Assembly: GCF_015706575.1 (NCBI RefSeq)
Contig: NW_024037060.1
Coordinates: 2,664,515 to 2,728,514 of the forward strand
Reading direction: 5' to 3'
DNA length: 64,000 nucleotides
DNA from: Patiria miniata
Taxonomy: Eukaryota
Shown here: one piece after another, positions 17,093 through 50,513 of the stretch
Position numbering within the stretch: position 1 is the stretch's first letter
Layout: each line of letters opens with the position of its first letter
Program-made: the position numbers and the translations under genes
The notes under the pieces: model-generated
The model's database searches: none
What the model was told of the DNA's origin: nothing
Seen by the model: only the letters and a program-made list of their open reading frames with translations

Positions 17093-17226
17093 CAATGAGC
17101 AGATATAATCGTGCTGGTCGTTGAGCGGTGCCACGGGTCTCGGAGGGCCAGCACCACCCTTACTAGCGGTCACCGCCATGAGACCCACGCCGTACACCAG
17201 CAGCATCACACGGTAGGCATTCCCCA
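17093..17226 (-). CDS. Candidate first coding exon with a signal-anchor-like N-terminus (MGNAYRVMLLVYGVGLMAVTASKGGAGPPRPVAPLNDQHDYICSL)
   Basis: The - strand ATG has a good Kozak context (gccATGG). It is followed by a hydrophobic segment and a perfect donor CATT|gtgagt, and it lies inside a CpG-rich block (~17100-17800). The downstream exons were not found. Confidence 0.3.
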
Positions 17227-22378: not shown

Positions 22379-25300
22379 GTAGGAATGTTCTCCACTGACG
22401 TAACATTTTCTTCCCCGGTTGGAAGTTCCTAATAACACCAATTAAACCCAGAAACTGCTTGGTAACGATCGTTAAAGTGAGTATTTCGTTTCGGAACTGC
22501 TGGAAGGAAAAGAAATCTTTAGTTTTCAAAAAAAAAGATCAACCCATTTCGATTTTATATCGTAATTAACAACTTTGATTTGATCGTCAGTTTGGGTACA
22601 ATATCAATATCATCTGTTGACAGGAATTATAAATTAAATACAAATGTGTATTATTTGACACTTGTATACGTTTTTAGCCCAAAAAAGCCCCAAACCCACT
22701 AATGGCATTGACTTAGGTTGATTGGTATCATGCGCAAGAAATAAAAAAATGTATTGAATTTAAAACTTTGAAATATTTGTCTAGTCCTTAAGGAAATATA
22801 TAAATAAAATAAAATAGAATAGAAGTAGAGATATCCTAAATAAATAAGAAATGAAATGAAAATAAACAAAATGAAAATTCTAAAAACAAAACAACAAACA
22901 AACGATTCTACACACATAAACAGCTATAAATAGAATTTTATTGGATCCGTCTAAACAAATCAAAACAAGAGGAAACGTAATTGTTATAGAAACTCCATAA
23001 CAGTGTCTGCAAGCGCAATATATTTATTAGAAACATCGTTAAGGTAATGTCATGTTTTGTGTAGCAAACACCATGACGTTGACGTCTATGCCGGATATTT
23101 TGAGATTGCCAACTTCCAACAATCATGTTTATCAGTCAACTCGAGGTGAACATCCGCTGATTTATGTTGCCGGTTGATGACATTCAGGCGAGGACTTCGA
23201 GACGAAAACATCATTTGCCTTGAACCCCGAATTCAAAATGTAACTTTAAAATTGGATAAAATCGTTTCCATTCCTCTTACAAAAATATTTACTGTGACGA
23301 TGAGAAGCATGTTCTTATACATAAAATAATTGTCTCAGAAGACTTTGTTTAATTTTCTTATGTGTAACAATAACGTAAAAACCAATACAAATATATAGGC
23401 GATGTAGGAACACATTACCATATTTTGGTACAGAAACCGATATGATTCATGATTAGTTAATAAAATAGGAAAATGTAAATTAAAATCTGCAATAAAATCG
23501 ACATGTTGCAGGCCATGATAAGATTTTTCATGAAATTATTTGTTTAATTCACTTTAAAAAAAGAAAGAAAAGCCGAATCGGCAAAGAAATATAAAATACA
23601 TTGGAAAACATGCGCGACACTGTGAAAAAAATTACACTCTGCGTGTTAACAATGAGTCAAAATACAGCATTTTGTATACCTTAAAAAGTAAAAAAAATAC
23701 GGGAAAATGAATGAAAACAATACAGAATTGTTTACATTGCCCCCTATAGGATCCACTGTATGAAAACAAAGGTTCTGTCTTAATTATGCGACCTATTCGC
23801 TCTTCTGCCCGTTGTACTTACACTATCAGTCAGGAGGCAGCGCTCCATCCAGAACCTCTCATTTCCTTAGTCCCCAGACGGGGAGGGGGGGGGGGGCGTG
23901 TGGGGGGGGGGTTACTGATAGGCAATGAGATGGCTAAACACTCGCTAGCTAGACGATGATATCGGTTCAGATGGTAACGCCCACATCACTCAGTTTTCCA
24001 AATTGTCACGGAATGATAATCGAACTGCATGAAACAAAAGAAGATTGGTCTGTCAGTCATTTGATCACTTTGTTTTCCAACCCAGCGGGTGAAACTCCGG
24101 GTTTTCCTCTCAAGGCTTAGAAGGCAATGATATTTCCTTCCTTGTCTTCTGTTCGTGAGTTAGCAAAATTTGTTTGTCATTTAGCCTGTTTTGATGTATA
24201 TAGGCTTCCCAGGAAGTCCACATCGAAGCGGTGTCATAATGAAACTTGAACTCCCATAAAATCTGGTCTCTTTTACCTTATATGGACTCAAACCCACTCA
24301 CGTGACACATTATTTTTTTTAAATGAATGTCTAAGATTTTTTTTGACAGAGCTGGGGGGGGGGGGGGGTTGACCCCCAAACACCCCCCCCCCCCCCCCCC
24401 TTGATTCGCGCCTGCGCCGAGAACTGCTCGTCAGGCAGGGAAGGGCCTGACTTTTGCTATTCAAACACAATAATCAACGAGTGTGCATTTCATATAAGTC
24501 CAATGACACATCACACTGGTCACACCATGAAGAAATTAGCCCAATGGTCAGGGGTAATCATGTAAAGGCACTGTACACTATTCCAGTGTTTTTGGCAGTG
24601 CCATCGTAATATTTCATTCCAAATCCAGATATCGCGATGGATTTCCTTCTTTTCAATTAAGATAACAATTACGAGATAACTTCTGAAGTCGTTGCTTTCA
24701 TCGGAGAACAATATGAGAAAGAGTTTTGTCTTGATAAGTCGGTCATGGTACTTCCCACTTCAGATAACAAAATTTAAGATAAGTTTCAAAATATTTCCGT
24801 TTTCTATTAAATAATTAAGATTGATCGTGAGAATCCGCCCTATTATTTTCTCGACGGATGTGTTTTTCGACAACTCCATTTGAAATAACGTACAGGATCA
24901 CCCGAGAAAGACGTCGTGTATTATTATCTCAAATACAAAAATGCGTAGAGAATAACGTTCCATTATTAACGGTAATAGGCCGACCAGATTTGGTTCATGT
25001 TGCTGTGTATTTTTCTAGCAATACAAAAGTTAGGCCTATTCACCTTTATAAGAGACATCGAACAATTTGCAAATAATTTTACTTTTACAAATTTAAAATT
25101 ATTTGCAAACGAATTAATTCAGTTGTATCTTTTGTGTATACCATAAGAGTCGCAAAAGCAACCCCACTTAAAAGCTTTTTGAGACGGTTGACACCCAAAG
25201 AAGTAAAAAAAAAAGCATTTTTCGTAAAATAAAAAATAAAGTATAAAATTAAAAATGTGTTCGGTTAAAAAAAAGAGAGTTAAATAGCAGATATAGTACA

Positions 25301-27282: not shown

Positions 27283-27854
27283 TCCTGGTGTTTCTGGCAA
27301 TGGTTACAATATGCGCTGCAGCACCTAGACCCTTATAAAGGTGCTACACATAATTGATAAGCCGGATTATTGTGATTTGTTTGTATATAATTTTTCAGGA
27401 TTTTTTTGTTAAGTTTCTTTGAAGAATGATAGCTGGATGCTAAATCGGAAGGGTTTCAACTTAAACTTCCAATCAAAAGTTTTAAAAACTGGACTCGGAC
27501 GATTTTTTTTCTCGAGTGAATTGCACCTGAAAAATCTCCAGTTCAGAAACATTAAATACAAATCTGGGAAAATAAGCTCATCTAAATAATCAAATGCTGA
27601 TGCGAAATGAATATTAAATTGTTTTTTCTATTATGCGGCCATGGATTTCACGATCGGTTCAAAGAAAATCGTACAGCATGTAATAAGATTTGGGTGCTAA
27701 ATGAGCCGAGAATGGTGAATTTTGTGTCGGAAACAATCATTATTGTTGGATCGTGGTAAAAAAAACGGATGCAGGTAACAGCACGAGTATGGAGAAAGCT
27801 GTAAAATTAACAAGACTCAAATTTTAATGTTCCTATTTCTGTTTTTTTTTTCAG

Positions 27855-27940
27855 TGATGCAGAGGTCTATCTAAAGCAAGACTGGGACACATTCACTTCC
27901 TGTTGCAAGGCGCTATATCCCAACCAAACATGTCCCATAG
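27855..27940 (+). CDS. Exon encoding the C-terminal end of an EMI domain (DAEVYLKQDWDTFTSCCKALYPNQTCPI)
   Basis: The acceptor is tttttttttcag|TGATGC and the donor is CCATAG|gtgagt. The motif CC-x3-Y-x4-C-P-I matches the 'CCPGYYESGDFCIP' end of the EMI domains of MEGF10, MEGF11, PEAR1 and Draper. The phase is compatible with the next exon. Confidence 0.6.
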
Positions 27941-28100
27941 GTGAGTTAACATTCGGACATATTGGTGAGCTAATGGATAATGTTCTCCCCTTATCATGAT
28001 GCATCCAGATCTAAAATTAAGCGTTATTTCCCTTTCATGTGTACTGGGTGAATAGCTAGCGAAAAAAGTTCTCTTCTGCTGCATATCCATAATAACGTCC

Positions 28101-28336
28101 TACTCTCTAAATTCAGAAGAGTGAAAATTCACTCCAGTCGAGTGAAGATTCACTCCCACAATCGAAAACTAGGGACTAGACGTTTAAGAGTGAAATGTCT
28201 TCAATCGTAAAGATCGAGTTTTCACTCGAGCTTCGTCCGAAGTGGTTCTTTTTCAGGCTATTTAAATCGAAAATGAGAGTGATTTTCACTCTAAAACGTC
28301 TAGTCCCTAATTTCACTCTTTGGAGTTTAGAGAGTA
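28101..28336. mobile_element. Foldback/MITE-like element (~235 bp) in intron of the MEGF/Draper-like gene; TIRs tactctctaaattcagaagagtgaaa / tttcactctttggagtttagagagta
   Basis: The 26-bp TIRs have 4 mismatches. A nested inner inverted repeat is also present (ctagggactagacgtttaagagtgaaa / ttcactctaaaacgtctagtccctaa). Confidence 0.45.
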
Positions 28337-29513
28337 CAGACGTGAAATGAAATAGGCCTGATTGTCGAGCGTAAGAGGGCGCTTTAAATGACGCCATTTG
28401 GGATATAAACATACGTGAATCCAAGGTATTTAGTGAGGAATAAACACATTTTGCAACAGTTAAAACGTAGGCTTAATTTTAAATTAAGTACTTAACTGCT
28501 TCAATAAACAGGATTGGGATTTTTGTATAGTGTTTGTATACACCCAAAAATGGCGTAGTTTCATTCAATGGCGGGTGGACCAGTGTGCAATGAGCTAGCG
28601 ATTAAAGTTTCTCCGGCCCCGGCTAAACATCTAAACCAACTGAGCTGAACACGTCTCCTTTGTGATTGTAGAGTAAGACATTGTTGAGTGAGCTGAACCC
28701 AAGAAATAAAGTTCCGTTCCGTCCTCTGGGTGGTTTACTGCGAGGTCAAACCAAGCATATCCGCATTGAATGATGGATGCTAAAATAGAAAAATAGGAAT
28801 TCCCAAATCGGGTGATTCAACCGAATGAGTCAAAGATGTCAGCACCATCCCGATCCCCGATGCATTTTAAATTGTGTGAGATCTTTGTATGGATGAAACA
28901 ATTTCAGTGAGGTTTCTTAATTCAAAACTTCGTGGAAGCATGAAAAAGACTCGGTGGAAATTCGCCACGGCAAGCACCCGTCACTTCCCGATCAACGAAC
29001 TGCATTACAATCCACACCCCGTGGTTTAATGCAATAAACATGTTACATTATGCTTTTGAGGGGAAATAGGGAACTTGAATTGCCAGCGTCATCGTGACGT
29101 CGTTGTAAATACAGCTGCGTCTGATCTAAAGAAGTTGTCGTGTTAACTCAACCTTGGTACTTTGTGTCCTCAGTTTGTATTTTGGCTAAAATTGTAATGT
29201 TCATGAAAGTTTACAATATGCATTTTTGAAGCAACAACATCCGATTCTTTGAAAACTTTTTATGAGGGCAAATTCTCTTCTGTCTTATTTGTGTTTCTTC
29301 AACCCTATTGCTCAGTCCTTCGGTCGCTTGATTGATTTTCTTTTCGTAGAATTTAGGTGGTTTCAAATTACGCATACATAATAAATGTTTTTCTATTCTC
29401 GAGGAGGACTTTGTCCCCAGTCTAACTGTTATAATTCGAATTACTGGTAAAAATTTGCAGAAATTGAATGACCAATTCTTTTGGGTGATTTTTCACTCCT
29501 CGTTTTTCGTCAG

Positions 29514-29721
29514 CTTGTCCGTGCCGAAACGGGGCCGAATGCTCGCCGAACAACCGAACCTGCGCCTGCAAACCGGGATGGGTCGGCCCCCAGTGTCAAA
29601 GGTCATGTCGGGACAGTGATAATCACACATACGGTCCGGGCTGTAAGCGGAGCTGCCGCTGTGGTCCGGACGCTACGTGCGAACCGATAACCGGCGTCTG
29701 CGAATGCGTCCATCCTGAAAA
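29514..29721 (+). CDS. EGF-like exons 1-2 (CPCRNGAECSPNNRTCACKPGWVGPQCQRSCRDSDNHTYGPGCKRSCRCGPDATCEPITGVCECVHPE)
   Basis: The acceptor is ttttcgtcag| and the donor is GAAAA|gtgagt. The cysteine pattern C-x-C-x2-GW-x-G-x2-C and YGPGC-x3-C-x-C are the laminin-type EGF repeats diagnostic of the MEGF/Draper/CED-1 family. The phase joins the flanking exons without stops. Confidence 0.75.
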
Positions 29722-30124
29722 GTGAGTTCCAATGTGGTCACGTGATTTGTCGTCCAGTATAGACATTATGCACGGCAGCCATCTTTGAGGGCGGTGCTCA
29801 GTCACTGAGTGTGTTTTGTTCAGCCCGTCATTGAAATATTTGTTTATTCTTCGTTACAATATCAGTTACGATAGTTTTCTGATACCTTTCCCCCGCATTT
29901 TCTTAATTATTTCTTTAAATAGTAATGTATTGGTTCATTTATTTATATCATGCATCTATCCTATCTTTATCGATATCTTCTGTTTTATTTATATCAACTG
30001 TTTTAAAACAATATCAATCAATAGTCAATACGCACGGAAGGCAAAAATAACTGAACGAATCGCTGATGTTCTGTTTTCGTACAGGAATAACTTTTTGCTA
30101 TATATATTTTTTTGACGGTGGCAG

Positions 30125-30234
30125 TTGTACAGCGCGTTGCTCTAGAAATCGTTATGGTCCAACATGTCGTCAAAAGTGCCGATGTAAGAAGACGGGCGAG
30201 TGTGATCAAGTGACCGGGGCATGTATCGTGACAG
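30125..30234 (+). CDS. EGF-like exon (NCTARCSRNRYGPTCRQKCRCKKTGECDQVTGACIVT)
   Basis: The acceptor is ggtggcag| and the donor is GACAG|gtatgt. It is in phase with the neighbouring exons and carries the MEGF-type YGPxC...C-x-C...G-x-C pattern. Confidence 0.75.
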
Positions 30235-30771
30235 GTATGTCCGATTCCAACTTGTGGGCGGATCCTGGTGGGAGGGTGTGGATGGGTTAATACCTGTGTA
30301 GGAGTTTAATGCTCGAAAAAAAGGGATTGGGAGAAGCGTGTCCATTCAACAGCATTGATATTACTACTGACTTAGGATTGATTTTAATCAATCCTAAGAA
30401 TATAATCTCTCCGATTTCTGATTCTTCTCCGAAGAAAATCCAAACAAGAATCTGTAAAAAAATAATGAAATATTGCAAAGTCAGTGAGTGCAGTGAAAAA
30501 TTCGGCATTGGTGTGGAACAAAGCGGCTGATGGAGTCCAACTGCAAAAGGTGCAAAAATTTGTGAAAAAGAAGGACATAAAGAGAAAAATCCTCAATCAA
30601 ATATCTTAGCTGTTGTGTCCAAAATCGGACGGAAATCAGAGTGAAGAACATGACTTTATTTTCTTTAAAAGCAAAAGGAAAAAGAAATGCCGAATGAGAT
30701 GGATTCTCATCTCTTGGAAAACAAAGATCAAATGCACAATTTTTTTTCTTCGATTTCGTCCACTGCGAATA

Positions 30772-30986
30772 GATGGCTCACCGTCGAGCTGCGGCTGTTT
30801 GAACGGCGGAACCTGCCGATCTCACGGTAAGCCGTGCCGGTGCCCGGCCGCTTGGACGGGCCGTCTTTGCGACGTTCCTTGCCCGTCGGGATACTACGGA
30901 GATGACTGCTCGATTCAGTGTGAGTGCGGAGACAACTCGACTTGCAGCCGGTCGACCGGGCTGTGTGAATGTACGACTGGAAACAA
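30772..30986 (+). CDS. EGF-like exons (DGSPSSCGCLNGGTCRSHGKPCRCPAAWTGRLCDVPCPSGYYGDDCSIQCECGDNSTCSRSTGLCECTTGN)
   Basis: The acceptor is gcgaatag| and the donor is AACAA|gtaaga. The repeat reads C-x-C-x2-AWTG-x2-C followed by a second laminin-EGF. Phase 1 entering and phase 2 leaving are both consistent with the neighbours. Confidence 0.75.
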
Positions 30987-31231
30987 GTAAGAACAGATCA
31001 ATGGCATTACTGATGAAGTGGAATTGTTTGAAGTATAGGGGAGGGGTGGAGCCTGTGGAAATCAGGGGCGCAACTCTCCGCACGTGTAGGCCTATTGACC
31101 CTACAATTTTAAGGAGTGGAGTAATATGGGAAGTAAAAAAAAGTAATATTATGGCGATTATTATATTGCTTTACTCTTAAGTATTACCCCTGGCCCTATT
31201 CATCAGGCGACGAAACCACTTTTTTTTTCTG

Positions 31232-31400
31232 CAGCAGCTCGAGATCAGCACAATCTGGTTTCTACTCTCACATATACCCATTTATAATGTACCCCTTGGT
31301 GGAGAGAGGAAATTGTAGTAAAATATCTTGCTCAAGAACACAAGCATCACGTTACCAGGCTGGGTTTGAACCAGGACCAATGGACCACGGCACTCCACAG
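31232..31400 (-). mobile_element. tRNA-derived SINE, copy 3, in the intron between EGF exons
   Basis: It has the same head and body as copy 1 (cagcagctcgagatc...ggtggagagagg...gggtttgaacc...tggaccacggcac). A T9 run on the + strand at 31222-31230 corresponds to the A-tail of the - strand element. Confidence 0.6.
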
Positions 31401-31737
31401 TCATGTTGTCCCATTATGCCGCAATTGGAAGTGGCAACATTGTCATAAAGCGACGAAATAAGAGAAAGTCATCATGACAACTCCAGTCTCCAGTTATTTA
31501 TAGTAGTGAGAGTTCATCCCCCGAAGCGTGCCGTTCGTTTGGTTTCTTCATGAGACTGTTTCCGACCCAATCCAACGACTTGTCACTCTTTTTGAAATAC
31601 TGCAACGATGTTATCTACCACAGGAATTTGAATCATCGTGACTTGACATAAGTGAAATCTCTTTGAATTTCGTCCCTGAAATACCCCAATGAAAATGATG
31701 GAAGTGAAATTTCTTAAACTTTCACTATTTTCCCCAG

Positions 31738-31892
31738 GTACTCGTGTGTGGGCCGGTGTCCGGAGGGACTGTGCGGTCCGCGGTGCTGGGACGAATGCAG
31801 ATGCCCGGCCGGTCTGGTGTGTCACCAGTGGACGGGAGATTGCGAATGTCGGACAGGCGATTGCACCAACAATCTGATTGGAGCAGCAACAG
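31738..31892 (+). CDS. EGF-like exon (KYSCVGRCPEGLCGPRCWDECRCPAGLVCHQWTGDCECRTGDCTNNLIGAAT)
   Basis: The acceptor is ttttccccag| and the donor is AACAG|gtacac. It is cysteine-rich in an EGF pattern and its phase is consistent with the neighbours. Confidence 0.75.
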
Positions 31893-32776
31893 GTACACTG
31901 GGTGATAAATAGTTGAAGGTCTTATAGTGTTGCAGACTGGTAGATAAAGTGACCTACAAACCCAAAATAACGGAAATTAAGTAAAAGAAAACATCAAATG
32001 ATAGACCCAGATCTCTGAGATGTTTAATGATGCTATAGCATGGATTTTCCGTGCTATTTTGGTTATTGAATTATTTCTTCAAACCCCCTCCCCCCCCCCC
32101 CCCCCGAATTATTGGCTACAAGACAAAAAGGCAGCAATTGTAAAAACTGCCCAAATTCGGAATAAAGTAGTTTTTCCGTTAAAACAAAACATGTAAATTC
32201 AAAATTTCGTTAGGGGAAAAATAGGCCTAATCCATTTCTTGTCGAAAACGGGGTTTGCAACTTTACGATAAAAAGTTACCATGGCTGGCTGCTCCATCCA
32301 TCACTTTCTGTTTAATTCCTAGGGGGAATGTCGTGACTGTTTGGCGATTTCCCATGCAGCGTTGGTCATCGCTAGAAAAATTCCAGAAGCTCAAACTGCA
32401 AAATCTCCTTATAAAGGTCCCTCAACTCCGAGAAAACGAGCAACCTCTTAACTCCCGGATATAGCGCCCCCTCGCGGTTCAATGAAGCTTCCGATTAGAA
32501 AACGATACAAACAGACGGATATTTCCTGCGCTATTGATTGGGCTGAATATATAGCGCCCCAATAATCATGTTTCACTTATGTGTTATACACGTATTTGAC
32601 ATGAGATATCAGTGCATGAAACAGTCGTGACCGTTGCTGCTGATGCACTGTGAAGGTGTGTGGGGTGAAGTGTGAATTATACACTCCAAAAAATTGTGTT
32701 TAGCAATTAAACACAGTCTTGCTATCATTTTTGTAGACGCTAAACATTACGCGTCCAATTCCTAAAGATCAATGTT

Positions 32777-32926
32777 CAATAGACCGAAGACATGATGACG
32801 TCACGCTTTGTTTACATGTGCGCTTTCCTATGAGAGCCATATGGAGAGCCAATCGTCTCCACCTGGCTCCCATAGGAAAGCGCACATGTGAACAAAGCGT
32901 GACGTCATCATGTCTTCGGTCTATTG
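32777..32926. repeat. 150-bp near-perfect palindrome (62-bp arms, ~26-bp spacer) containing TGACGTCA in each arm
   Basis: Left arm caatagaccgaagacatgatgacgtcacgctttgtttacatgtgcgctttcctatgagagcca. The right arm is its reverse complement with 2 mismatches. Confidence 0.7.
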
Positions 32927-35820
32927 CTAAACACCATCCAATCCATCAATACTCAAAACATGTTACTATTTAGTATTTGAACATATTTACAAAGTGATAG
33001 CAAGAAAGTGTTCGGAAATTGCTAAACATAACTTTTTGCTGAGTACCTGTTTTCCACGGTTCCGAATGGCCCTTCATTTGTGTCCGGTGCCAGTGAAAAA
33101 TAAAATATAAGTCATATATTTTATTACCAAGCAAAGAGAATTACATTATCAGAAACACTGGCTTCCATTAGCCTATGGCTTCTTTTTTTCATCGAAAACT
33201 ATTTCCATGGAGGTACAAAAAAATTTAAAACATATATCGTCGCCAAAATAATAAACATTAAAATGTTACAAAGTAATGCACACCGCCTGGAAACTCCCAT
33301 AGACCTTGACTAAGTTTTGAAAGATCGATGTCCCTTATGTGAACGCATTTTTAGAGGTTCATTAAACTCTCGGTGAGTTGACGAAACGGAAAGTGCGAAC
33401 TCTAGAAACAAAACAACAATGTGTCCAACAAAAACGAATAGAGGAAGTGGCTGGCTTGGTGCGTGAGAAATCGATCGTGAGAACGAGGCCAGAACGAATC
33501 ATGTTAAGCGGAAAGTATCTGTGTCGGACCCTGCATATTACAACAAAAAGTTTGATATCAGAGCCCCAATTAAATCAAAATTTGCAAGTAATTATGGTTA
33601 AGAGTTGGCCTACATCATCCAATGATCGCTCCTGCTAATAATTTGCATGACTTGTAGTTTCTATTCCGCTTAAGGACTAGGCCTATTAAGAATAGCAATG
33701 TATATCTATTATGTGATTAATTGGTATTTTTTTGCTAAACATGTCCATGTAGCACCTTTTGTTTGTGCATGATGACTGATGTTTACAATATTTCTTAGTG
33801 CCAACTAAAATGGAAACTTATGTCTTCCATGGTGAGATTCTGCAATGGTCTTGGATAAATATTCATTTATATATCGATTTGACCCGTTGCTTTCAAAACG
33901 AAAACTAATTACAAGTAACACCTTATATCAGCTAAGTTTTTCGTGAATGATTATAGTGGGGAAAGGCGGTAGTTGGTATAGCATCGTCGCAAAAAAAAAT
34001 GGACAGCATTTTTTGGCCACTTTGTTAGTTTTTGTCCTCGCCCAACCGAGCCAATTTTCATGAAACTGAAGTAAGTCTATATATGTTCTATGAAATTTAC
34101 TGACAACAAGGCTTCGAGAACAGATTTTTCGCTGGTTGCCTGGTTTTGCTTTGTATAAAGGTGTATAGCGAACTTGTGTGTTAAGCACGTCCCTGAACTA
34201 GGTTGACCGCTTATCCTATACGGAAGCCATGGGCGTCCGCTGAACGTTTAATAACAACTACAGTATATAGAAAACCGTACAACTCTATGCTTGCTTTCGA
34301 AGTATCTGTTTTAATAATTATCGACTGAAATTTAACAACACTTGATTTTCCAAGAAAGTGTACACGGATCCATGCAAATTGTAGTCTATGGAATATCCCC
34401 TTGGGTCTGTGATAATTTTATGCGACCAGATTCGGCGGTAAATTATGCAAAACAAGACTGCGTCTTGGCCTGGAGATTCTGACCATTCAGCGGGTGCATT
34501 TGGTAACCCGTTGTTGTATTGACATGGCGTCCTAAAGAAAAACTGACCAATCAACAGCTTAGTCCACATTTCTGATCGAAATGACGTCACAGTTTCGGGG
34601 TCGCATAAAATGTCCATGTTAGGTATATCAGAGTTGGACAGTGGCTCTGCACACGTAACTATCGGATCCTCAGACTATATGTAAATAATAATTATTGTAC
34701 GAGTGAACAGATAAATGAATACATCAGATGCCTAAAAGAATATAGTGATGGTGATATTTTTTGAAGTGCAGAAGATCGATTTGAGAGAAAGAAAAACCTT
34801 TTAGTTTGTATATGACATAAGGTTGCGGTTGCACCGTGCATTCTCGTCTGTGAAAGTCAGAATTGTTCTCTGAGAATAATTCACACCTCCGTTTATTTTC
34901 TTCAGAACTACAAGTTTTTCAAGGGAAAGATACATGTATTTCATGGTGTACCCGCATACATATACTTTATTGTGCCTGTCCACCATGCAAAGCTTCAAAT
35001 CACATTTGATACTTGTTTGTATAAGATAAGGACCTCTTTTTAAGATGACACCACATATTCACAAGTAGCGTAGGCCTACATGGCTTGGGGCGCAGTTCAA
35101 TGATTCATTACTTTTTTTAAGTAAAGGTCAGATCCTGAAAAGCCAGGGCTTTCCCCAAACATGCCGGGGAAGCTGATGAGGCAGAACAACCTCAACAGCT
35201 GTAGAGCCAGACGGTGGGGAGGGGGGGGGGGGGTGTATAATTGTACGGGACGTCCGGGGACAGGGGTAAAGAAAAGATCTGGGGATGGGTCACGTGATTG
35301 TGGTCGTTGGCAAGACTGGTCGAATCAAAAGGTGGTGTTATAATAGAGCGAGTATAGCTTATTGAACAAAGAATGCTTTCAATTGTTCCACTGTCCCTAA
35401 AACTGAATATGTTATATGATTGCACCTTAATTACCAACTATAAATGATCTTTTCCTTCCAAATTAACACAACTCAGGACAATCAGACACCTTTTCTCTGC
35501 TTGCTTGTTGTTTCTTGACATCGTCTTCCTTCCTTTTTTTTAATTATTTTTTTTAATTAAACCTGCAGGAAAAGTCAGTAAAGCAATGAGTTTCCAGAGC
35601 CCTAATTGGGCCCTCGTATAAAACGAGTGAGATTAGAAAAACAATGTTCACAAACGAGTCAGCTGAGTGCAAGTTTAACTGCTTTTAGTCAAATCTAACC
35701 AGAATATTTTTAGAATTTAAGTCTCTTAAAAAATGCCGTTATAGCTTTATAAAATGCGTCTAGACGTACATATAAGTCACCAAACTGAATCATATATTTG
35801 TATTGTTTTGTCACCAAAAG

Positions 35821-36238
35821 GCCTAGATATAAGCACAGCTACTGTCACCACACCACGTACGACCCAACCTACGCCACTAGAGACTAACGCCACAACTGGT
35901 ACGCTTCCCCCACCCACTTCAACCACCGCCCTGTCTTCACTTCACACCAAGCAGAAAACAACGGTCATCCCCACATCAACCGACGGGTCAACGACACGAC
36001 ACGCGGCCGGGAAAAGCGACGACCGGCCGGCGGCGACGGGCGAGACCGGCCCGGTAGCGGATGGGTCGCCGCAGCGGAGCGACGATGACGCAGCCAAGCC
36101 AGCGGGAAATGGGTTCTATCCGACGGCGCCGTTTTGGGGTGTGGTGGGTACCATCGCGGTGTTGCTCCTGGTCGTCGTCGTATTGCTGTTACTCATACTA
36201 AAGCGACAAGTGTCATCGTCCCGATTGGCATTGACACG
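35821..36238 (+). CDS. Exon encoding a Thr/Pro-rich mucin-like stalk, the transmembrane helix (FWGVVGTIAVLLLVVVVLLLLIL) and the basic stop-transfer KRQVSSSRLALT
   Basis: The acceptor is tcaccaaaag| and the donor is ACACG|gtaagt. A 23-residue hydrophobic stretch is followed by KRQ. The upstream T/P/S-rich segment (TTPRTTQPTPLETNATTGTLPPPTSTT) resembles an O-glycosylated stalk. The phase joins the EGF exon upstream and the cytoplasmic exon downstream. The 162-aa ORF in the track starts artificially at an internal Met. Confidence 0.7.
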
Positions 36239-39080
36239 GTAAGTCCCACATTATTTTTTTTTTTAAATAACTGGTTTACAAAGGTTTACAGAAAAAGGAA
36301 ATGGTTTAAAGAAATAAGGGAAAAACATGCTAGAAAAGTGAATCGGAGGTTTGCGGTAACACCGTGTGAATGATATCTCTTTGTGAGTTGTGTAGTTCTG
36401 AGAAGAACCAGTTAACTGACGTTTCGAAAAGTACGTCAACAGAAAAGGTTATGAAAAATGAATACGTCAGATACGAAGATGTTCACTGTTTCTGTTTTAT
36501 CAAACCACATAATGCGGCATATTGTGCCATATTGGTTCATTACAGATACACAGTGTTAATTGATCCGCGCCACAATTTTTGCATTGTTTCTTTGTTCCCT
36601 GGGTTACAAAGAAAAATCTTGTTTCTGTCAATAGGCCTAGGCATATGGAGTGTTAAAACAAGCATACAATGCACAGAAAGTGAAAGGCTATCCTTGACTT
36701 CTATTCAGTTTCGTAGCGTGCGTCATCAAATACTTTTGCCTGAATATTTAGAACACTAAAAAATGTTGGTATTTAATCGTTCAATAAAGACAACATATTC
36801 ATATAATGTAGCAAATTGAGAACATATTCTGAACCTGAATTTGAAATCTTGTTCTATGCATTTCTTTTCTGCACATGTTGATTCATTGTTCATCAAAGCC
36901 TTTAAAAAGGTTGAGGAAGCAATGACAGTTAAACAAATGCTACCCTCAATACAACCCCTGTTTTATTTGTTATAAATTTTTTTAAACAAATACTTCCCGT
37001 TAAATACAAACTGTGGCGCCGGTCAATATGGCTTGATTCGAGAAACACATGTCACATCAACAATTACAGGTGTTATGATCTTCTGTAGCATCGGTTTTGA
37101 ATCCCATATACAGGAAACGCAACAAAGTCAACACGTCTATATAAAATGGCAGACTGTTCATGCATGTTTATTTAATCAACTCATTTTTTTTCTGTACAAG
37201 TCAGACGTCATTTATATCATTCAAATTTGAAATATATAGGTGATGTCACCCAACTTTCAATTTCGGTACTTTTTTAATATTAAAGTTGCGTTTCCCGTGC
37301 TCTTCAACAAATTCGATTTTTTTCCCTTTCTGTTGAAACATTTTTCAACTTGTGTATGTTTTATGCCAAAAGAAATCCTCTGTTTTCCCCCTTAGTTGGG
37401 GGGGGGGGGGGGGGGGGGGGGGGGACCAAAACAGATCTGGCTTCCAGTCCATACATTGTCGATACCTGTTGTGGGGGAGGGGGACCAGCCTACTTCAGAG
37501 AACGGAATTATTGTCCGGCAGCCAATAAAACAAAATTGATAATAATTCAATAACTAAACACTGGCTGAATTTTTTTTTTTGGGGGGGGGTCGATGTCTCA
37601 TTCAAAGTGAATAACTTCTGCATTGCTAGAAAAATAGCAATTTAGAAAGGAAATCTGTTTTTCAGGATGATACTCTTTAATTCATTATCGGGCGACGCTC
37701 TTCTATTCTGTATAGTGCCCGAACGTGTTGATTATAGGTCATAATTTCTTTCAGATGTATTGAATTCTTCTGACGAGGTCATGATTCATTTTTGCTTCAC
37801 AATCTCATCACTTTCCGTTTCGCATCAAAATTTGACAAACATGATAGATCATGGCATACTTCAAAGCTTACATTTTGGGGAGGGGGGGGGGAGGTAGATG
37901 AGTTTTGTGTTTATTGAAACTACGACCGAATTTGAGGACCCACCGTGTTCCTCGTGCTAATTGGACTCGTGCGCAACTGCATAATAATTGATAATTTATT
38001 TTACCGGTATTTGTGTTTGTTTATTGAACCTTTGTTTCATCCTTTAAATACATGAATACGTTCTACACAATACATGCAGACTTTTACGTGAATTTTTTTT
38101 CCTTCATCTCGATTGTCAAAACTTTGAAGATTTCCCACTCGGACACGTGATAGGAGAAGTTCTGAGATAAAAAGTATAGGCCCCCTATTGTTAAGAAATT
38201 GAATTATTGGACTTTATAGATTATCAAAATTGGGTCTTCAGAGATCCCTTTTTGAGGTAATGTGGTATTTACAATGACTTGCAGTTTGGCCACATGATAA
38301 ACCGCACAACATTTGTAGAAATAGGCCAAATTTCCTTGACCAAAACATTGAAGGAAAATCCTGGGGAATTTTGTTTTATATAACTCTGGCAACGATTGTG
38401 AAATGTGACACTAATCAGCCGAACACTTACACAAGGAAATAAATTGTTCAGGAAATGTTATTTTAGTACAGTGTACGAGGGTTATAAGGGCAGTGCGATA
38501 ACGAGTTTCAATCGTACATCAATCGGATATTCGACAATCGAAGTATCGAATATCGAGAACCCCCCCCCCCCAAAAAAACCCACTAACACGCACCAACACG
38601 CACATTTTGTTTATGGTGTAAATCGAGGATTTTCTACTATTCCTCATCATCGGTCTTTTGTTTATACTTTTTTTGCAACAGTTCTCATCGGTTTTGTACA
38701 CGTTTTCTAATCGAGGTCGTCCTCGATTTGGTTCCTGTCCTCAATTACTCGATGATGCTTCACATGACTTTTTGTGTGTCCTCGATTTACACCATAAACA
38801 TGTGCACACCACACACGCACACTTTCAAAGTCATGTCAAAAAAAAAGGTTTTTCCAAGATCGACCGTCCATTTGAAAGACTGTTAATTTACATGAGGAAA
38901 ATATATACCGTATCACGCTTACATGCACGAATAACCGAATACTCGATACCCCATCTCACCATATTGCCGGTATCGAATACCCAGTATCAATCGCTTAATC
39001 GGTTTCCTGGTTGACACACATAACAATGCAACTTGTCCTGCTTATAAAAACGCCACCGCTTTGCTTTCATTTTTCAATAG

Positions 39081-39157
39081 GCAACCGAAGATTTGCCGGC
39101 AAGACAACGTTTACGAAACAGTGGAGGATCTGGGCAAAGGCGCAGCTATCGAACAAG
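39081..39157 (+). CDS. Juxtamembrane cytoplasmic exon (RQPKICRQDNVYETVEDLGKGAAIEQ)
   Basis: The acceptor is ttttcaatag| and the donor is AACAAG|gtaagc. Only this reading frame keeps phase between the TM exon (phase 2) and the terminal exon (phase 1). It contains a DNVY motif. Confidence 0.55.
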
Positions 39158-42100
39158 GTAAGCTGGACATTTTTGGATCATATTTCATTTGGGAAAACAA
39201 ACAAGATAGCAAGGTATAATAAATTTCAATTGTGAAGAGAATATGCAAAATATGACTGTAAATCTGACTCCATTGTGTGAAGGGTGTTCTGTTGGATTTA
39301 AAAGTACGCATTAAACAGCTTTTGTTTTAAATCACTTTCACCTATATCATTTCAAAAGCATTGTCTTTTATGGGTAGGTATACATTCAGACGCCACTTTT
39401 GCAGTCTGTTCAAAATTGAGCTGTATATGATTTCATGACCTGACGTGCAGGCTCATCGGGCGAATTTGAGTGGTCGCTTAAAAGCAGATAGGATCGTTTG
39501 TTTTCATAAATTTTGCGTGTCCACTAATTGCGCCACTCAAAATCCATTGAAGAGTGTTGAAAACCTAACCTGTTAAAGTTTCAGCTCAGTGGATATGACA
39601 CTTTTTCTAGAAAACAGTTTATTGGTTCATTGGTTTATTTTTCATATCATCGAACATAATTCACAAGAATCTATTTAAAGAAAAACAAAAATGATATGAG
39701 AGATCCAGATAAAAACCACGCACAACCTTTTGAGCACGAACTTCGTCCATAGCACTCTTTAGTTCCATTCAATTATTGACTGATCGTTGGAAATCACCTA
39801 CATTTCTTGATTTCTCCTAAATGACAGCAAGCCAGACGGAATTATTTCACGGGGTGTTTAGTACCAGTGCGATCTTTAATCCATTAATAATTTGATAATA
39901 ATTCGGTATACAGCCTGTCTAAAAAAAATGGTACAATCGAAAACGAGTTTTTTTCAATATTAAATCTCAACATAAGTAAGTCGTTTTGAGCATCACATTA
40001 AAGAAAAAAGACCAGGCTTTCCAATACTTTTTGTTTCATCTCATTTGCTTTTGTCAATCCAGAGATAACTCCAGTTTACTGCGGAACACAAAAATCGAGT
40101 TTGTTTCTTTTGCCAAGTTGCAATCTTTTGTGAGCTTCAAGACAGCATAGCACAGTACTCGAAACAACTCTGCCCATGCATAAAAGTGGCACAAAATCGA
40201 TTTTGGTGTATCGCACTAAATTGATTATATCTCTGAATTTACAAAAGCAAATAAGATCAAACAAACGCTATTGGAAAGCCCAGTCTTTGTTCTTTAATAT
40301 TATGCCAAGTAAGAATGACTTATTTTGAAATTTCATATTTAACCATTTTTTTTTCTGATTGTACCATTTTTTTTTTGACAGGCTGTTACATTTGTGATAA
40401 ATGCAAATGATCCTATATAGATGCCTTTAAAACCCACAGTCGACTTAAGATTGTAGTCTGCAAGATTTCGTTTGCAAAAATAAAAAAAGTCCTCAAGCTC
40501 GAAAAAAGGGGACCAATGCAATTGCAAGACAGTGATTACAACACTGCCAAAAGTTGGTTCAATGAAAACCATCTCTACTGATTCAATAATGACAGAAGAG
40601 ACTCACAATGGTGGGCTTTGTTGCACTACAGTGGTTAAAGATCAAAGATGGTTCTCCGTGGCGTTATTTTCGAGTTTCACGTCGAAAAGTTGATTTTTTT
40701 TCTTTCAAACTGTTGTTTCCTTAGCAAATTAAAAGTTATTCACTTTTGAATGAGGCATCGAACGAAACATTCCACCGACTCATAGTCATGGAATTAATTC
40801 TTCCTACAGATTCGAATGATTGACTGCCAGACAATGATTCGGCTCTAGCAGGGCGGGTTCATTTTTTGCGCAAAATGAAAGTCCTTTTTCAGAGGGTTGC
40901 AGACGCCCAAAATCAAAATAATATAGCTTTATTTGAATTAAAAAAACTAAACAAACAGTCAAAATTGAACATTCGTTAGGAGGAAATATTCCCGTTTTTT
41001 TTTAGGAGCACAAGGTTCGTAACTTGAATGCCACGTTGCAGTAATGTTCTTTTATCAATGTTCAGTGTCACCAAAAAAAACCCCCGTGCAATTTTTAGAT
41101 GAATGTGGCGGCGGATGTTATGATAATTTCTGAAAAGAAAAACACCGATATTCCATCGGAGTTCTCTTTCAAAGAAGGAAAAATGTACTCACAAAAATGT
41201 TTATTTCTGTGTCTGATGTGTCATGTTACCACAGCAATACCTTTCAAAAGAGGAAGAACTTTGACAAAATATTTATCAATTTCGGTATGGATGTTTATGC
41301 ATTGAAATTGACACCGATCAACTTTCTCTTCGAACGATGAATGGTGTTTTTTTCCATCGTCAGCAGTAATATCAGAACAAAAAGGCGATATACTGTACAT
41401 TATGCAACATTCGAATTAAAGGCATATAATATCATTTGCATTTATCCCAAAAGTAAGCTGGCGATACGATTTACTATCAAAAAGTGTACTTGGATTAAAG
41501 ATCGCACTGGTATAAACACCCCGTCACATTCTTCCATCTAGCTCTCTGTCCTTTATAAGAAATCAAGAAATGTATCATGATTTCCAAAGATCAGTCAGCT
41601 GACCGATCGTTGGAAATAAAGAGTTATATTTATATTGCCGAGAATGGTACGTTGTGCACAAACGTTTTCAAACTTTCATGACTCCTATAACCCCTATTTT
41701 ACCTTATCCTACCCCCACCAGTTTGGGTACATTTGTGTTTTGGACCACCAGCAATCGATCTAGCCTATTTGCGACATTTAAAATGTTGCCTCTAAATAGG
41801 AGTGTGGCATTGGGAGACATTAAAATGTGTCCTTAATCTACCAGTCGCCCTATAAGGTATAACATTATGACGAAAAAATATCTCGTTAAGGGTACTCATT
41901 CACAGGAATTAATGAAATCAAAAGCATGTGCGTGGTTTCCTCAAAATATGTAATATCCATGAGCTGAAACTTGAACAGTGGAATAGTTTTGGAACATTCT
42001 TTTTTGGATTTTGAGTGGTGTTATTGTTGGAAACGAAGAACAGGCATGAAAAGCAAATGATCCTGTAAGCCCAAAACGTTCGTGTCACTAGACCTTCGTG

Positions 42101-42420
42101 CGCAAACCGCAGGACTATCGACCTGAAAAGACCGACTTTAGAGCAAGATGCCAACCACGCGAACAGTCTGTGGCTTGGTCGCTGACGTGACTTTTAACGC
42201 TGATGATTCTCAGTAGAATCCAACAGGATGTTCGATTTGTCAGCACAGTTCGTGGGGTTTTGCTGAATGCTTTAAAAATAGAATCGGGATAGTATATAGT
42301 CTGTGCCTTACATGAGCAGTTCATGCATTATCAACATTAATCGTTTCAGAACACTTCCGCACTTAGTTTGGAGAAATAACTAGTTAAAAGTGCCATTTCT
42401 TCTATTGTTTGTTTCAAAAG

Positions 42421-44078
42421 TTATCAAGACACCTCCACCGCTACCAGACATGTTTCAACGAGGAGGCAGCACGAGATCTAGCGTGCACAGCTACCACCAC
42501 AGGCCGTTATCCGTGCATTCACCACTGCCGACCATGGACGCCCCACTGCCGGCCAGCGTGGCGGCCATGGTGTGCAACTACGGTGGTGGCCCGCCGGTAC
42601 CGGGCGGTACATCGCGCCGGAGTCTCATGGCCGAGTGGCGTCCCCACGGAGTGCGGGACTCGCAATCAAATCTTATAGATGACCCCAAGACCCAGAATCG
42701 CAGTGGCAAAGCGCTGAGCTGTATCTACAACGGTGGTATTATGATCGAGGATGATTACGCAGATCCTTTTGATACGATCGCACCGACCGGTAACACGGGG
42801 AACCGACCAGCTGGCTACTTACCGATGATTCTAGGACAAGACCAAAGACGGAGCCAATCCCCGGTTCCGAGGAGCAGGACACCGCCAAACCTCTCACGGG
42901 GAAGTTCTCCTGTGACAGTACCTAGGAGTGACTCTCCCATGGGGGTTCAACGATGCGATTCTCCAATGGCGGTACAACGATCTGATTCCCCGATGACGGT
43001 TCAACGATCCGATTCCCCGATGACGGTTCAACGCTGCGAGTCCCCGATGTCTACCCAGCGAAGCTCGTCTCTCATGAACGTCCAACAAAGGTCTGCCTCC
43101 CCCATGACTGTTCACCAAAGTGAACCCAATTTGCATCTCCAGCAGACTGACTCCAACATGAACTTCCATCCCAGTAACTCTTCTGTAGATCTCCGTAAGG
43201 GATTCATGGGAAGTCCATCCAGCTCTCCTCAGAGACAGAGTGCATCCGGATCCCCAAGCTTCGATCCATTTTACTTTACCCTCGAGCAGGGAGCCAAGCC
43301 AGACAGCCCCAAGGGTCCTGATGATGATTACGATGAGCTGGAGCCACAGTCACCCATCAACTCTCCAGCAGGAGGGTTACCATTCGACGGCCGGTCTGCA
43401 TCATCTCGTACAAGCAGCGAGCGCTCCAGGGCGTCATCTCATGCTTCGTCTCGAGGCTCCCTCTCCGCCAACTCCCCCACCTTAGCGTCTTCCTTCGGCT
43501 CTAGCCCGCGCGATGCCGAGATGTTCGCGGTGTTAGACCGCAGACCGGAGACACCCATCAGGCCGGATCTGCCGCGGCGACTTGTGTCCAGCAACGTGTA
43601 CGCGTCCTGCGGGCCTCCCAAGACGTCCTCCACACCGGCGGACGATGGGATCTACTCCAGGTTGAACAGGACCCCATCCCAACGGATGGAGCTACCGACC
43701 GCTCCGCGTGGAGTAGCGGACCTGGACATGAGTACCTACGGTAGGCTGCAGCGTAGCTACTCGGCCAAAATTCCCGCCCGTAACACCACCGATGGCCCGT
43801 ACGGGAAGCTTCCCCAGCGTAGCAGGTCAGCGATGGTTAAGAGTCATCAAAACGTGAGCGGATCGGCGTCGGCCGTGGATTGCGAAGCGGGAGAATGGGT
43901 GCCTGCCGAACTGCACCCACGCCTCGGGCCCCGGAGAACCAAACCGCCTAACGTGACGGAACCACGGAAGAAATCTCGCTGGAGTATCAAGGGCAAGCTG
44001 GGCAAAAAATCGCCAGCGGAGATGGATTTTGACTGCCCATCATCGACGGCAACTCTGCCCTACCCTGGTGATTGGTAG
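42421..44078 (+). CDS. Terminal exon: ~550-aa Ser/Pro-rich disordered cytoplasmic tail with 6-7 tandem nonapeptide repeats (S/C-D-S-P-M-x-V-Q-R) and three YxxL motifs; stop codon at 44076-44078
   Basis: The 562-aa ORF in the track is this exon. The acceptor gtttcaaaag| at 42420 falls inside the ORF and is in phase with the preceding exon (g+tt gives Val). The composition is typical of MEGF10/PEAR1/Draper tails (S/P-rich with multiple tyrosines). The tandem repeats and the YSRL, YGRL and YGKL motifs are read directly from the sequence. Confidence 0.75.

Positions 44079-50475: not shown

Positions 50476-50513
<38 letters not shown>
50476..50513. repeat. C38 homopolymer (G38 on the - strand) in the putative 3' flank of the ankyrin/coiled-coil gene
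   Basis: An uninterrupted run. There are many further G/C runs of 12-27 nt elsewhere (361-386, 6811-6822, 23876-23920, 24354-24400, 32086-32104, 35218-35232, 37398-37424, 46612-46640, 46996-47020, 63481-63504, 63948-63961). Confidence 0.9.

What the first reader, a model, noticed from the sequence alone, without database searches (positions are those of the whole stretch)
32777..32926. 150-bp near-perfect palindrome with paired CRE-like TGACGTCA sites inside a receptor-gene intron
The 62-bp arms show only 2 mismatches, which implies a recent origin or selective maintenance. Each arm contains the palindromic octamer TGACGTCA, the consensus cAMP-response element (ATF/CREB site). The structure could be a foldback-transposon remnant, a long-hairpin RNA or endo-siRNA source, or a cruciform-forming regulatory element. 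It is too long for a canonical miRNA precursor.
Basis: seen in the sequence. Interest (0 to 1): 0.55.

Follow-up and report, generated by a model that had tools for sequence, protein, structure and literature searches.

The report
Young palindromic insert inside an old transposon
The 150-bp palindrome is real, but it is most likely an ordinary short non-coding transposon-type insertion sitting inside an older miniature transposon in a sea-star gene intron, and its two "cAMP-response" sites are mirror images of one motif.

Summary
Bases 32777-32926 form a palindrome with 71-nt arms, 4 mismatches and an 8-nt loop. Counted as 62-nt arms there are 2 mismatches. TGACGTCA occurs once in each arm.

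The palindrome lies in a 3.9-kb phase-1 intron (31893-35820) of a + strand gene for a transmembrane protein with EGF-like repeats. That gene's nearest relative is an Asterias amurensis protein, so the organism is an echinoderm, probably a sea star.

The palindrome (GC 49%) is embedded in an AT-rich (30-33% GC), TA-flanked 366-bp inverted-repeat element (32680-33045). The terminal repeats of that outer element match both ends of a 332-bp TA-flanked element in another sea-star contig, so the outer element belongs to a real MITE family.

No relative of the inner palindrome was found anywhere I could search. There is no Rfam family, no coding signal, and no conservation in the A. amurensis orthologous intron.

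My best reading (confidence about 0.55) is a young Made1-like palindromic MITE or foldback insertion nested in an older MITE, with no dedicated host function. The main rival is a local inverted duplication.

Copy number in the source genome could not be tested, because that genome is not in any searchable collection. Interest is low.

The parts
32777..32926 (.). Inner near-perfect palindrome (150 bp, GC 0.49)
32777..32847 (.). Left arm (71 nt)
   Evidence: Mismatches to the right arm are at 32813, 32833 and 32840-41.
32848..32855 (.). Central 8-nt spacer (loop)
32856..32926 (.). Right arm (71 nt)
32796..32803 (.). TGACGTCA octamer, left arm
32900..32907 (.). TGACGTCA octamer, right arm. It is the mirror image of the left one.
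32780..32781 (.). TA on the left, a candidate 2-bp target-site duplication. The element proper would then be 32782-32921. This is weak evidence, because any self-complementary dinucleotide inside a palindrome is mirrored.
   Evidence: reasoning in the report
32922..32923 (.). TA on the right, the candidate target-site duplication partner
32680..33045 (.). Outer, older TA-flanked MITE (366 bp including the insert, about 224 bp without it; flanks 30-33% GC)
32680..32731 (.). Outer left terminal inverted repeat, TA|CACTCCAAAAAATTGTGTTTAGCAATTAAACAC...
   Evidence: It is 84% identical over 37 nt to the TIR of L003:831-1162.
32991..33045 (.). Outer right terminal inverted repeat, ...GTGTTCGGAAATTGCTAAACATAACTTTTTGCTGAG|TA
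32697..32714 (+). Family motif TGTTTAGCAATTAAACAC, dyad-symmetric and repeated 4 times in the L003 element
32739..32779 (+). Subrepeat X1 of the outer MITE (GCTAAACA...TCAA), abutting the palindrome on the left
   Evidence: 15 of 500 shuffles reach the score
32926..32957 (+). Subrepeat X2 of the outer MITE (GCTAAACA...TCAA), abutting the palindrome on the right
31893..35820 (+). Host intron (phase 1) of the gene for a transmembrane protein with EGF-like repeats

Best explanation
The 150-bp palindrome is a young, non-coding, palindromic DNA-transposon derivative. It is a Made1-type MITE or foldback element made of two long terminal inverted repeats back to back around a few unique bases.

Inferred mechanism: a transposase supplied in trans bound the two arms, excised the element, and integrated it at a TA (or AT) dinucleotide inside an older, AT-rich Tc1/mariner-like MITE. 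That older MITE was already sitting in the intron of a sea-star gene for a transmembrane protein with EGF-like repeats.

The two TGACGTCA octamers are one motif of the arm seen twice because the arms are mirror images. They may be a fortuitous site or a promoter or binding-site remnant of the parent element.

The insert has no demonstrated host function. As a by-product, the pre-mRNA carries a 71-bp perfect-like dsRNA stem that Dicer or ADAR could act on, and the DNA could extrude a cruciform.

Shown here: the palindrome itself, its nesting in a real MITE family, the compositional break, and the absence of coding capacity, of any RNA-family match and of conservation. Inferred: transposition as the origin, TA as the target, and the lack of function.
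For: (1) The inverted symmetry is layered, not graded. The outer about 50 nt match at 83-86%, the middle (45 vs 64 nt) does not align, and the inner 150 bp match at 94-97%. That points to two separate events.

(2) The outer layer is a genuine TE. Its TA-flanked TIR is 84% identical over 37 nt (E = 3e-4) to both TIRs of a 332-bp TA-flanked element in another asteroid contig, L003:831-1162. It shares that element's repeated 18-bp motif. The rest of the two orthologous introns is unalignable.

(3) The inner segment is compositionally foreign, with GC 0.49 against 0.33 and 0.30 for the host MITE on either side. It has no significant similarity to the L003 family member.

(4) The inner segment sits exactly between two adjacent GCTAAACA...TCAA subrepeats of the host MITE. 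It is bounded by TA on both sides. Joining the flanks gives ATGTTCAA(TA)TTGCTAAACA, which resembles the host's repeated motif: 16/18 to GTGTTTAATTGCTAAACA.

(5) The base rate is high. The window has at least 6 short IR-flanked elements. The A. amurensis ortholog of this gene carries two copies of a fully palindromic foldback MITE of about 390 bp in its introns.

(6) No ORF in the intron has a Pfam domain. No Rfam family reaches threshold. There is no conservation in Asterias.

(7) The anatomy matches Made1, which is two 37-bp TIRs plus 6 bp (PMC1784062).
Against: No second copy was found anywhere: the 64-kb window, three other asteroid loci, viral contigs, metagenome contigs (one chance hit in a GC-rich bacterial gene), prokaryote genomes, or ORF-level proteins. 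None of these collections holds the source genome, so this is absence of a test rather than a negative result.

The TA...TA flank is not independent evidence, because any self-complementary dinucleotide in a palindrome is mirrored.

The motif reconstitution is weak once the right flank is taken as given: 778 of 5000 random left flanks do as well.

The termini (TA|GACCGAAG...) do not look like the classical CAGT-type ends of Tc1/mariner. That comparison rests on my own knowledge.
Confidence: 0.55

Rival explanations
1. Local inverted duplication, not transposition. A roughly 70-nt stretch already present inside the old MITE was copied in reverse next to itself by replication template switching or fold-back repair of a break. 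This gave a unique, recent palindrome with a short asymmetric centre.
For: It is a single copy in everything searchable. The arms are 94-97% identical, as expected for a recent event. All mismatches lie in the inner half of the arms, which fits centre-destabilising changes in young palindromes. The TA flank carries no weight, because it is forced by the symmetry.
Against: The segment has 49% GC inside a 30-33% GC element, so the source arm would itself have to be foreign to the MITE. The palindrome sits exactly between two subrepeats and is removable without leaving a remnant. A duplication would be expected to leave one arm continuous with its original context.
Confidence: 0.22
2. Functional hairpin-RNA locus. 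The intronic 71-bp stem is excised and diced into endo-siRNAs (hpRNA-like) or a non-canonical miRNA that regulates the host gene or another gene.
For: The hairpin is extremely stable on either strand. It lies in a transcribed intron. Made1 MITEs gave rise to the miR-548 family in this way (PMC1784062), and hpRNAs are known siRNA sources in Drosophila (PMC10317233).
Against: No Rfam family reaches threshold, and the sub-threshold hits are equal on both strands, meaning generic hairpin matches. The stem is about twice the length of a pri-miRNA stem and the loop is only 8 nt. The arm matches no gene that could be a target. It is not conserved in Asterias. The four arm differences give one wobble and unpaired positions on each strand, so no strand is favoured.
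Confidence: 0.07
3. cis-regulatory element. Two CREB/ATF sites presented on a cruciform or as a paired enhancer confer cAMP-responsive control of the host gene.
For: The consensus TGACGTCA is present twice, 104 bp apart. The octamer is rare: 0.86 are expected per 64 kb and 5 are observed, two of them here.
Against: The two sites are one motif mirrored by the palindrome. There is no conservation of the intron. The site lies in a nested transposon. The other three octamers in the window have unrelated contexts.
Confidence: 0.05
4. Remnant of a parvovirus or densovirus-like terminal hairpin. Such viral telomeres are palindromes of 100 nt and more and can carry ATF/CRE sites, and densoviruses infect sea stars. 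Both statements are from my own knowledge.
For: Only the resemblance: a hairpin of about 150 nt with a CRE octamer.
Against: There were no exact matches of three arm patterns in 2.9 million viral contigs. No ORF with any Pfam domain lies in the surrounding intron. The hairpin is solitary.
Confidence: 0.02
5. Assembly or sequencing artefact, such as a chimeric fold-back read.
For: Nothing specific. The window does hold many long G/C homopolymers.
Against: The arms differ at 4 positions and have an asymmetric 8-nt centre. The flanks are continuous with a coherent MITE structure on both sides. Fold-back artefacts are usually kilobase-scale and perfect, which I state from my own knowledge.
Confidence: 0.03

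Closest known systems
Made1 (Hsmar1-derived MITE, source of the hsa-mir-548 family; PMC1784062)
   Same: It is an almost fully palindromic, non-coding element built of two TIRs around a few bases. It is often intronic and forms a very stable hairpin when read through on either strand.
   Different: Made1 is 80 bp (2 x 37 + 6) with thousands of copies and a known autonomous parent. This element is 140-150 bp (2 x 66-71 + 8). No other copy and no parent were found, and there is no small-RNA evidence.
Stowaway-like / Tc1-mariner MITEs with TA target-site duplication
   Same: The outer element (32680-33045) has TA flanks, TACACT... termini like the TACAATG/TACACTG ends of the L003 element, an AT-rich body, and repeated internal motifs shared with a member in a second species. 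The inner element is also bracketed by TA.
   Different: The inner element's termini (GACCGAAG...) are not CAGT-like. Its TA flank is uninformative because of the symmetry.
Foldback MITE family seen in the Asterias amurensis ortholog (L002:8028-8413 and 24790-25095)
   Same: These are near-complete palindromes with a 2-4 nt centre, lying in introns of the orthologous gene, and they are multi-copy.
   Different: Their sequence is unrelated, with 151-192-nt arms at 85-89% identity. Two copies are demonstrably present there, which is not shown for the palindrome studied here.
Drosophila hpRNA loci (PMC10317233)
   Same: They are long inverted repeats transcribed into a hairpin with an extended perfect stem.
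   Different: hpRNAs derive from and target specific genes, and their siRNAs are documented. No target homology and no expression data exist here.

Membership tests
MITE (non-autonomous class II element) | Short (<800 bp) and non-coding | tested here: met
   The element is 150 bp. The one open frame across it has no Pfam hit and no relatives.
MITE (non-autonomous class II element) | Terminal inverted repeats | tested here: met
   The arms are 71 nt and 94% complementary.
MITE (non-autonomous class II element) | Target-site duplication of a superfamily-typical kind | tested here: inconclusive
   TA is at 32780-81 and 32922-23, but the palindrome forces this. No longer direct repeat fits. The motif reconstitution reaches p of about 0.16 given the right flank.
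MITE (non-autonomous class II element) | Multiple dispersed copies in the genome | not testable with these tools
   The source genome is absent from all collections: the best protein hit is 51% identical. There is no copy in the window, in L002-L004, or in the viral, metagenome or prokaryote scans.
MITE (non-autonomous class II element) | Autonomous partner with matching TIRs | not testable with these tools
   No transposase ORF is visible near the element. There is no access to a genome-wide search or a Repbase/Dfam search.
Outer element: Tc1/mariner-like MITE family | TA-flanked TIRs shared with other members at non-homologous flanks | tested here: met
   The window TIR against both TIRs of L003:831-1162 is 84% identical over 37 nt, E = 3e-4. 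The flanks are unalignable.
Canonical animal miRNA precursor | Stem of about 33-35 bp with a loop of at least 10 nt and single-stranded flanks; membership of a described family | tested here: not met
   The stem is 71 bp and the loop 8 nt. Rfam best hits are 56.5 bits against a gathering score of 76, with equal scores on both strands.
hpRNA / endo-siRNA locus | Long transcribed inverted repeat | tested here: met
   The hairpin folds at -129 kcal/mol inside an intron of a + strand gene. Transcription itself is inferred.
hpRNA / endo-siRNA locus | Small RNAs from both arms; homology to a target gene | not testable with these tools
   No small-RNA data are available. No homology of the arm to anything was found.
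CRE (CREB/ATF) enhancer | Consensus TGACGTCA | tested here: met
CRE (CREB/ATF) enhancer | Evolutionary conservation or factor occupancy | tested here: not met
   The orthologous introns of A. amurensis (L002) and of the L003 species show no similarity to the palindrome. Occupancy is not testable.
Parvovirus/densovirus terminal hairpin | Sequence relatives in viruses; adjacent NS/VP remnants | tested here: not met

The most novel reading that the evidence does not exclude
The palindrome is truly single-copy and is maintained by selection. In this reading it is a lineage-specific intronic long-hairpin RNA, acting as an endo-siRNA source or an ADAR or dsRNA-sensor substrate, and/or a cruciform-presented pair of CREB sites. 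It would tune the host transmembrane gene with EGF-like repeats, having been exapted from a very recent insertion into an old MITE.
Probability: 0.05. Interest if true: 0.45.

Novelty: new member of a known kind. Interest (0 to 1): 0.15.

Why it matters
It matters little on present evidence. Short palindromic MITEs and foldback inserts in introns are commonplace in echinoderm-type genomes, and the CRE pair is a geometric consequence of the palindrome.

The locus has minor value in two ways. It is a clean example of nested MITE insertion. It also exposes a Tc1/mariner-like MITE family whose TIR and internal 18-bp dyad motif are recognisable in two sea stars whose introns are otherwise saturated with change.

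If small RNAs were shown to come from the stem, it would be an echinoderm parallel to Made1 and miR-548.

Tried and rejected
(1) Rfam. Nothing reaches gathering scores in the whole window. The permissive scan gives only generic miRNA-hairpin hits below threshold on both strands, so I rejected it as a known RNA.

(2) Exact-pattern scans for arm sequences. Viral contigs were scanned three times with 0 hits. Metagenome contigs gave one hit, a chance 20-mer in a GC-rich bacterial coding region. Prokaryote genomes gave 0 hits.

(3) ORF trick. I searched the open frame through the palindrome against 5.8 billion proteins to catch ORF calls on other copies. No candidate was found.

(4) Orthologous loci. 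A. amurensis L002 and two further asteroid contigs, L003 and L004, show no similarity to the palindrome.

(5) Similarity of the inner arm to the outer MITE family member in L003 is not significant: 38 of 500 shuffles reach the score.

(6) CpG content as an age or methylation clue is uninformative. The palindrome has o/e 1.02 against 0.83 for the intron, and 11% of 150-nt windows have at least as many CpGs.

(7) The 'reconstituted motif at the empty site' looked striking: 1 of 5000 random deletions does as well. It is weak once the right flank is fixed, at 778 of 5000, so I use it only as supporting evidence.

(8) The direct repeat X1/X2 as a long target-site duplication is rejected. X1 and X2 align only with several gaps and are clearly more diverged than the arms, so they are older subrepeats of the host MITE.

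(9) Other TSD lengths (3-10 bp), P-element-like CATGATGA ends and Helitron-like A|T insertion were checked by eye. None fits.

(10) Other TGACGTCA sites in the window (16133, 16459, 34582) have unrelated contexts.

(11) ARAGORN finds no tRNA-like feature.

(12) Pfam on all intronic ORFs gives nothing above threshold.

Full report
OBSERVATION. The palindrome exists exactly where stated. The repeat finder gives arms at 32777-32847 and 32856-32926: 71 nt, 94% complementary, 8 nt between them (sequence; gapped arm alignment). Two further mismatches (32840-41/32862-63) lie beside the loop.

As RNA the structure folds at -128.9 kcal/mol on the + strand (z = -25.5) and -130.2 on the - strand (z = -22.9). 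As DNA it folds at -80.5 kcal/mol (z = -20.2). No shuffle came near any of these values.

TGACGTCA is at 32796-32803 and 32900-32907. That octamer is its own reverse complement, so a single occurrence in one arm must reappear in the other. The 'pair' is one independent event. Its chance probability is roughly 1e-3 per arm, given 0.86 expected per 64 kb, and it was picked out after the fact.

CONTEXT. The 562-aa ORF at 42390-44078 is 49-51% identical to three proteins. One is an Asterias amurensis 'uncharacterized protein' of 982 aa (P0002). P0002 has a signal peptide-like start, EGF/laminin-EGF-type cysteine repeats, a Thr/Pro-rich stalk, one transmembrane helix and a long Ser/Pro-rich tail.

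tblastn of P0002 maps eight collinear + strand exons from 27853 to 44048. The palindrome lies between the exons at 31736-31892 and 35821-36239. The donor is CAG|GTACAC at 31892/31893, and the acceptor at 35820/35821 keeps phase 1. So 'inside an intron of a receptor-like gene' holds. 'Receptor' rests on architecture only, because the Pfam EGF hits are below threshold.

The organism is an echinoderm, probably an asteroid. Its own proteins are not in the protein collection: the best identity is 51%.

ANATOMY BEYOND THE STATED COORDINATES. Self-BLAST shows that 32680-33045 as a whole is self-complementary (72% over 391 columns, E = 3e-51). The symmetry is layered, not graded:
- The outer about 50 nt (32680-32731 against 32991-33045) match at 83-86%.
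- The intermediate stretches (45 nt on the left, 64 nt on the right) do not align as inverted repeats.
- The inner 150 bp match at 94-97%.

The inner block has GC 0.49. The outer flanks have 0.33 and 0.30.

THE OUTER LAYER IS A REAL TRANSPOSON FAMILY. I fetched the loci that encode the three homologous proteins. The only significant similarity between the window's intron and the corresponding intron in contig L003 (another asteroid) is the outer terminal repeat:
- Window 32679-32715 matches L003 1162-1127 at 84% over 37 nt (E = 3e-4).
- It also matches, more weakly, L003 814-864.

Those two L003 sites are themselves the TA-flanked inverted termini of a 332-bp element:
- L003 left end: TA|CAATGTAAAAATGCTGTTTAGAATTTAAACAC
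- L003 right end: GTGTTTAAATTCTAAACACCATTTTTACAGTG|TA
- Window left end: TA|CACTCCAAAAAATTGTGTTTAGCAATTAAACAC

The L003 element carries four copies of the 18-bp dyad motif TGTTTAG(A/C)A(A/T)TTAAACAC. The window element carries it in the left TIR (32697-32714) and, with an indel, in the right TIR. The half-motif TTGCTAAACA occurs three times in the element.

Internal sequences of the two elements do not align, and the surrounding introns are saturated with change. The shared ends therefore reflect a transposon family, not orthologous neutral DNA. The outer structure is a Tc1/mariner-style (TA-target) MITE.

THE INNER PALINDROME AS AN INSERT. The palindrome sits precisely between two adjacent subrepeats of the host MITE. 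These are X1 at 32739-32779 and X2 at 32926-32957, both of the form GCTAAACA...ATCAATnnTCAA (15 of 500 shuffles reach the score). It is bracketed by TA at 32780-81 and 32922-23.

Removing it and one TA gives ATGTTCAATATTGCTAAACA. Counting AT once instead gives ATGTTCAATTGCTAAACA, which is 16/18 identical to the host's own motif GTGTTTAATTGCTAAACA.

I treat this only as supporting evidence, for three reasons:
- A random 150-bp deletion does as well in 1 of 5000 trials. Once the right flank, which is an exact half-motif, is fixed, 778 of 5000 random left flanks do as well.
- The TA...TA bracket is uninformative, because any self-complementary dinucleotide inside a palindrome is mirrored.
- The extra 3-7 nt of pairing outside the putative element (CAA/TTG, TGTT/AACA) is explained by the dyad symmetry of the host motif.

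The inner arm has no significant similarity to the L003 family member (38 of 500 shuffles). It therefore does not belong to the host MITE's consensus.

SEARCH FOR RELATIVES OF THE INNER PALINDROME. All searches were negative:
- the window itself;
- asteroid loci L002-L004;
- viral contigs, with three patterns including a gapped palindromic one;
- metagenome contigs, where the single hit is a chance 20-mer in a GC-rich bacterial gene;
- prokaryote genomes;
- a protein-level search with the frame that is open across the palindrome, intended to catch ORF calls on other copies.

None of these collections contains the source genome. The decisive copy-number test therefore remains undone.

WHAT IT IS NOT. 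It is not a described RNA family. Rfam finds nothing at gathering scores, and the permissive scan gives only generic hairpin hits (mir-4716 at 56.5 against 76 bits, and others) of equal strength on both strands. It is not coding, and it is not next to transposase or viral genes. It is not conserved in the A. amurensis orthologous intron.

The four arm differences give each strand one G·U wobble and otherwise unpaired positions, so neither strand shows RNA-level compensation. CpG content is uninformative.

BASE RATE. The window holds at least six other short elements flanked by inverted repeats, and a 454-bp foldback. The A. amurensis ortholog of this very gene carries two copies of a fully palindromic foldback MITE of about 390 bp (L002 8028-8413 and 24790-25095). 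It also carries several copies of another MITE. Palindromic non-autonomous elements in introns are therefore routine in these genomes.

MOST LIKELY EXPLANATION (about 0.55). The palindrome is a young Made1-like palindromic MITE or foldback element, two long TIRs around about 8 nt. It would have been mobilised in trans and integrated at a TA (or AT) in the centre of a dyad motif of an older Tc1/mariner-like MITE in the intron. Made1 (two 37-bp TIRs plus 6 bp, stable hairpins from either strand, origin of miR-548) is the closest described anatomy (PMC1784062).

The nesting, the compositional break and the TE nature of the host element are shown. Transposition, the target dinucleotide and the absence of host function are inferred.

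Expected by-products, from general knowledge rather than tests here, are a 71-bp intronic dsRNA stem available to Dicer or ADAR, and cruciform or instability potential at the DNA level.

RIVALS:
- A local inverted duplication (about 0.22) fits the single copy seen. It has to explain why a 49% GC segment sits cleanly between subrepeats of a 30-33% GC element.
- A selected hairpin-RNA gene (about 0.07) and a CRE enhancer (about 0.05) have no positive evidence beyond structure and motif.
- A parvovirus-like terminal hairpin (about 0.02) and an assembly artefact (about 0.03) are disfavoured and by the imperfect, asymmetric centre.

VERDICT. The finding is a new member of a known kind, and interest is low (0.15). 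The decisive test is a whole-genome search with one arm, plus an empty-site or presence/absence comparison.

Noticed in passing
window, 15 sites, e.g. 365-386 (G22), 37398-37424 (G27), 50476-50513 (C38), 32090-32105 (C16), 35221-35233 (G13): There are 15 homopolymer G or C runs of 12-38 nt in 64 kb, two of them in the same intron as the palindrome. They could be natural echinoderm 'G-strings' or sequencing or polishing artefacts.
   Followed up: no
L003:831-1162 and window 32680-33045: A Tc1/mariner-like MITE family with TA flanks, TACA(A/C)TG-type ends and a repeated 18-bp dyad motif TGTTTAG(A/C)A(A/T)TTAAACAC is recognisable in two asteroid species. In both it lies in the same intron of the orthologous gene, 2.3-3.1 kb upstream of the transmembrane exon. 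The flanks are unalignable, so I favour independent insertions, but an ancient shared insertion is not excluded.
   Followed up: partly
L002:8028-8413 and L002:24790-25095: Two copies of a fully palindromic foldback MITE of about 390 bp (arms 192 and 151 nt, 85-89% complementary, 2-4 nt centre) lie in introns of the Asterias amurensis ortholog.
   Followed up: partly
L002:3853-4239, 16814-17185, 33134-33524, 1106-1499, 12446-12818: At least four or five copies of a MITE of about 385 bp with TIR TTAAAGGCAGTGGACACTATTGGTAATT occur in 36 kb of A. amurensis DNA.
   Followed up: no
window 39921-40374: A 454-bp foldback (184-nt arms, 77% complementary, 86-nt centre) has flanks related to repeats at 48623-48731 and 49975-50081.
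   Followed up: no
window 4378-4627, 31232-31372, 53633-53833, 57146-57406: A dispersed SINE-like repeat family carries a GGTTCGAACC box. ARAGORN calls no tRNA in the window.
   Followed up: no
window 3489-3730 and 48917-49255: Two minisatellites: a 17-bp unit repeated 14 times (93% matches) and a 23-bp unit repeated 14.7 times (95% matches).
   Followed up: no
window 28101-28336, 62448-62810, 1495-1820, 38608-38800, 16727-16989: Further short elements bounded by 22-30-nt inverted repeats at 88-100% complementarity, two of them with TA-C... ends. These are probable MITEs.
   Followed up: no
window 47594-48124 (-): A 176-aa ORF has a tail typical of non-LTR retrotransposon ORF2 proteins (...LHWLPIRQRIxYK...). 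That recognition is from my own knowledge. There is no Pfam hit.
   Followed up: no
window 51991-60810 (-): A neighbouring gene or genes lie on the minus strand: long Ser-rich ORFs of 599 and 311 aa without Pfam hits, and an ankyrin-repeat exon at 58008-58322 (Ank_2, E = 6e-10).
   Followed up: no
window 42944-43049: A 27-bp coding tandem repeat (3.9 copies) in the cytoplasmic-tail exon encodes the reiterated SPM(T/A)VQR(S/C)D motif, which is also present in the Asterias proteins.
   Followed up: no
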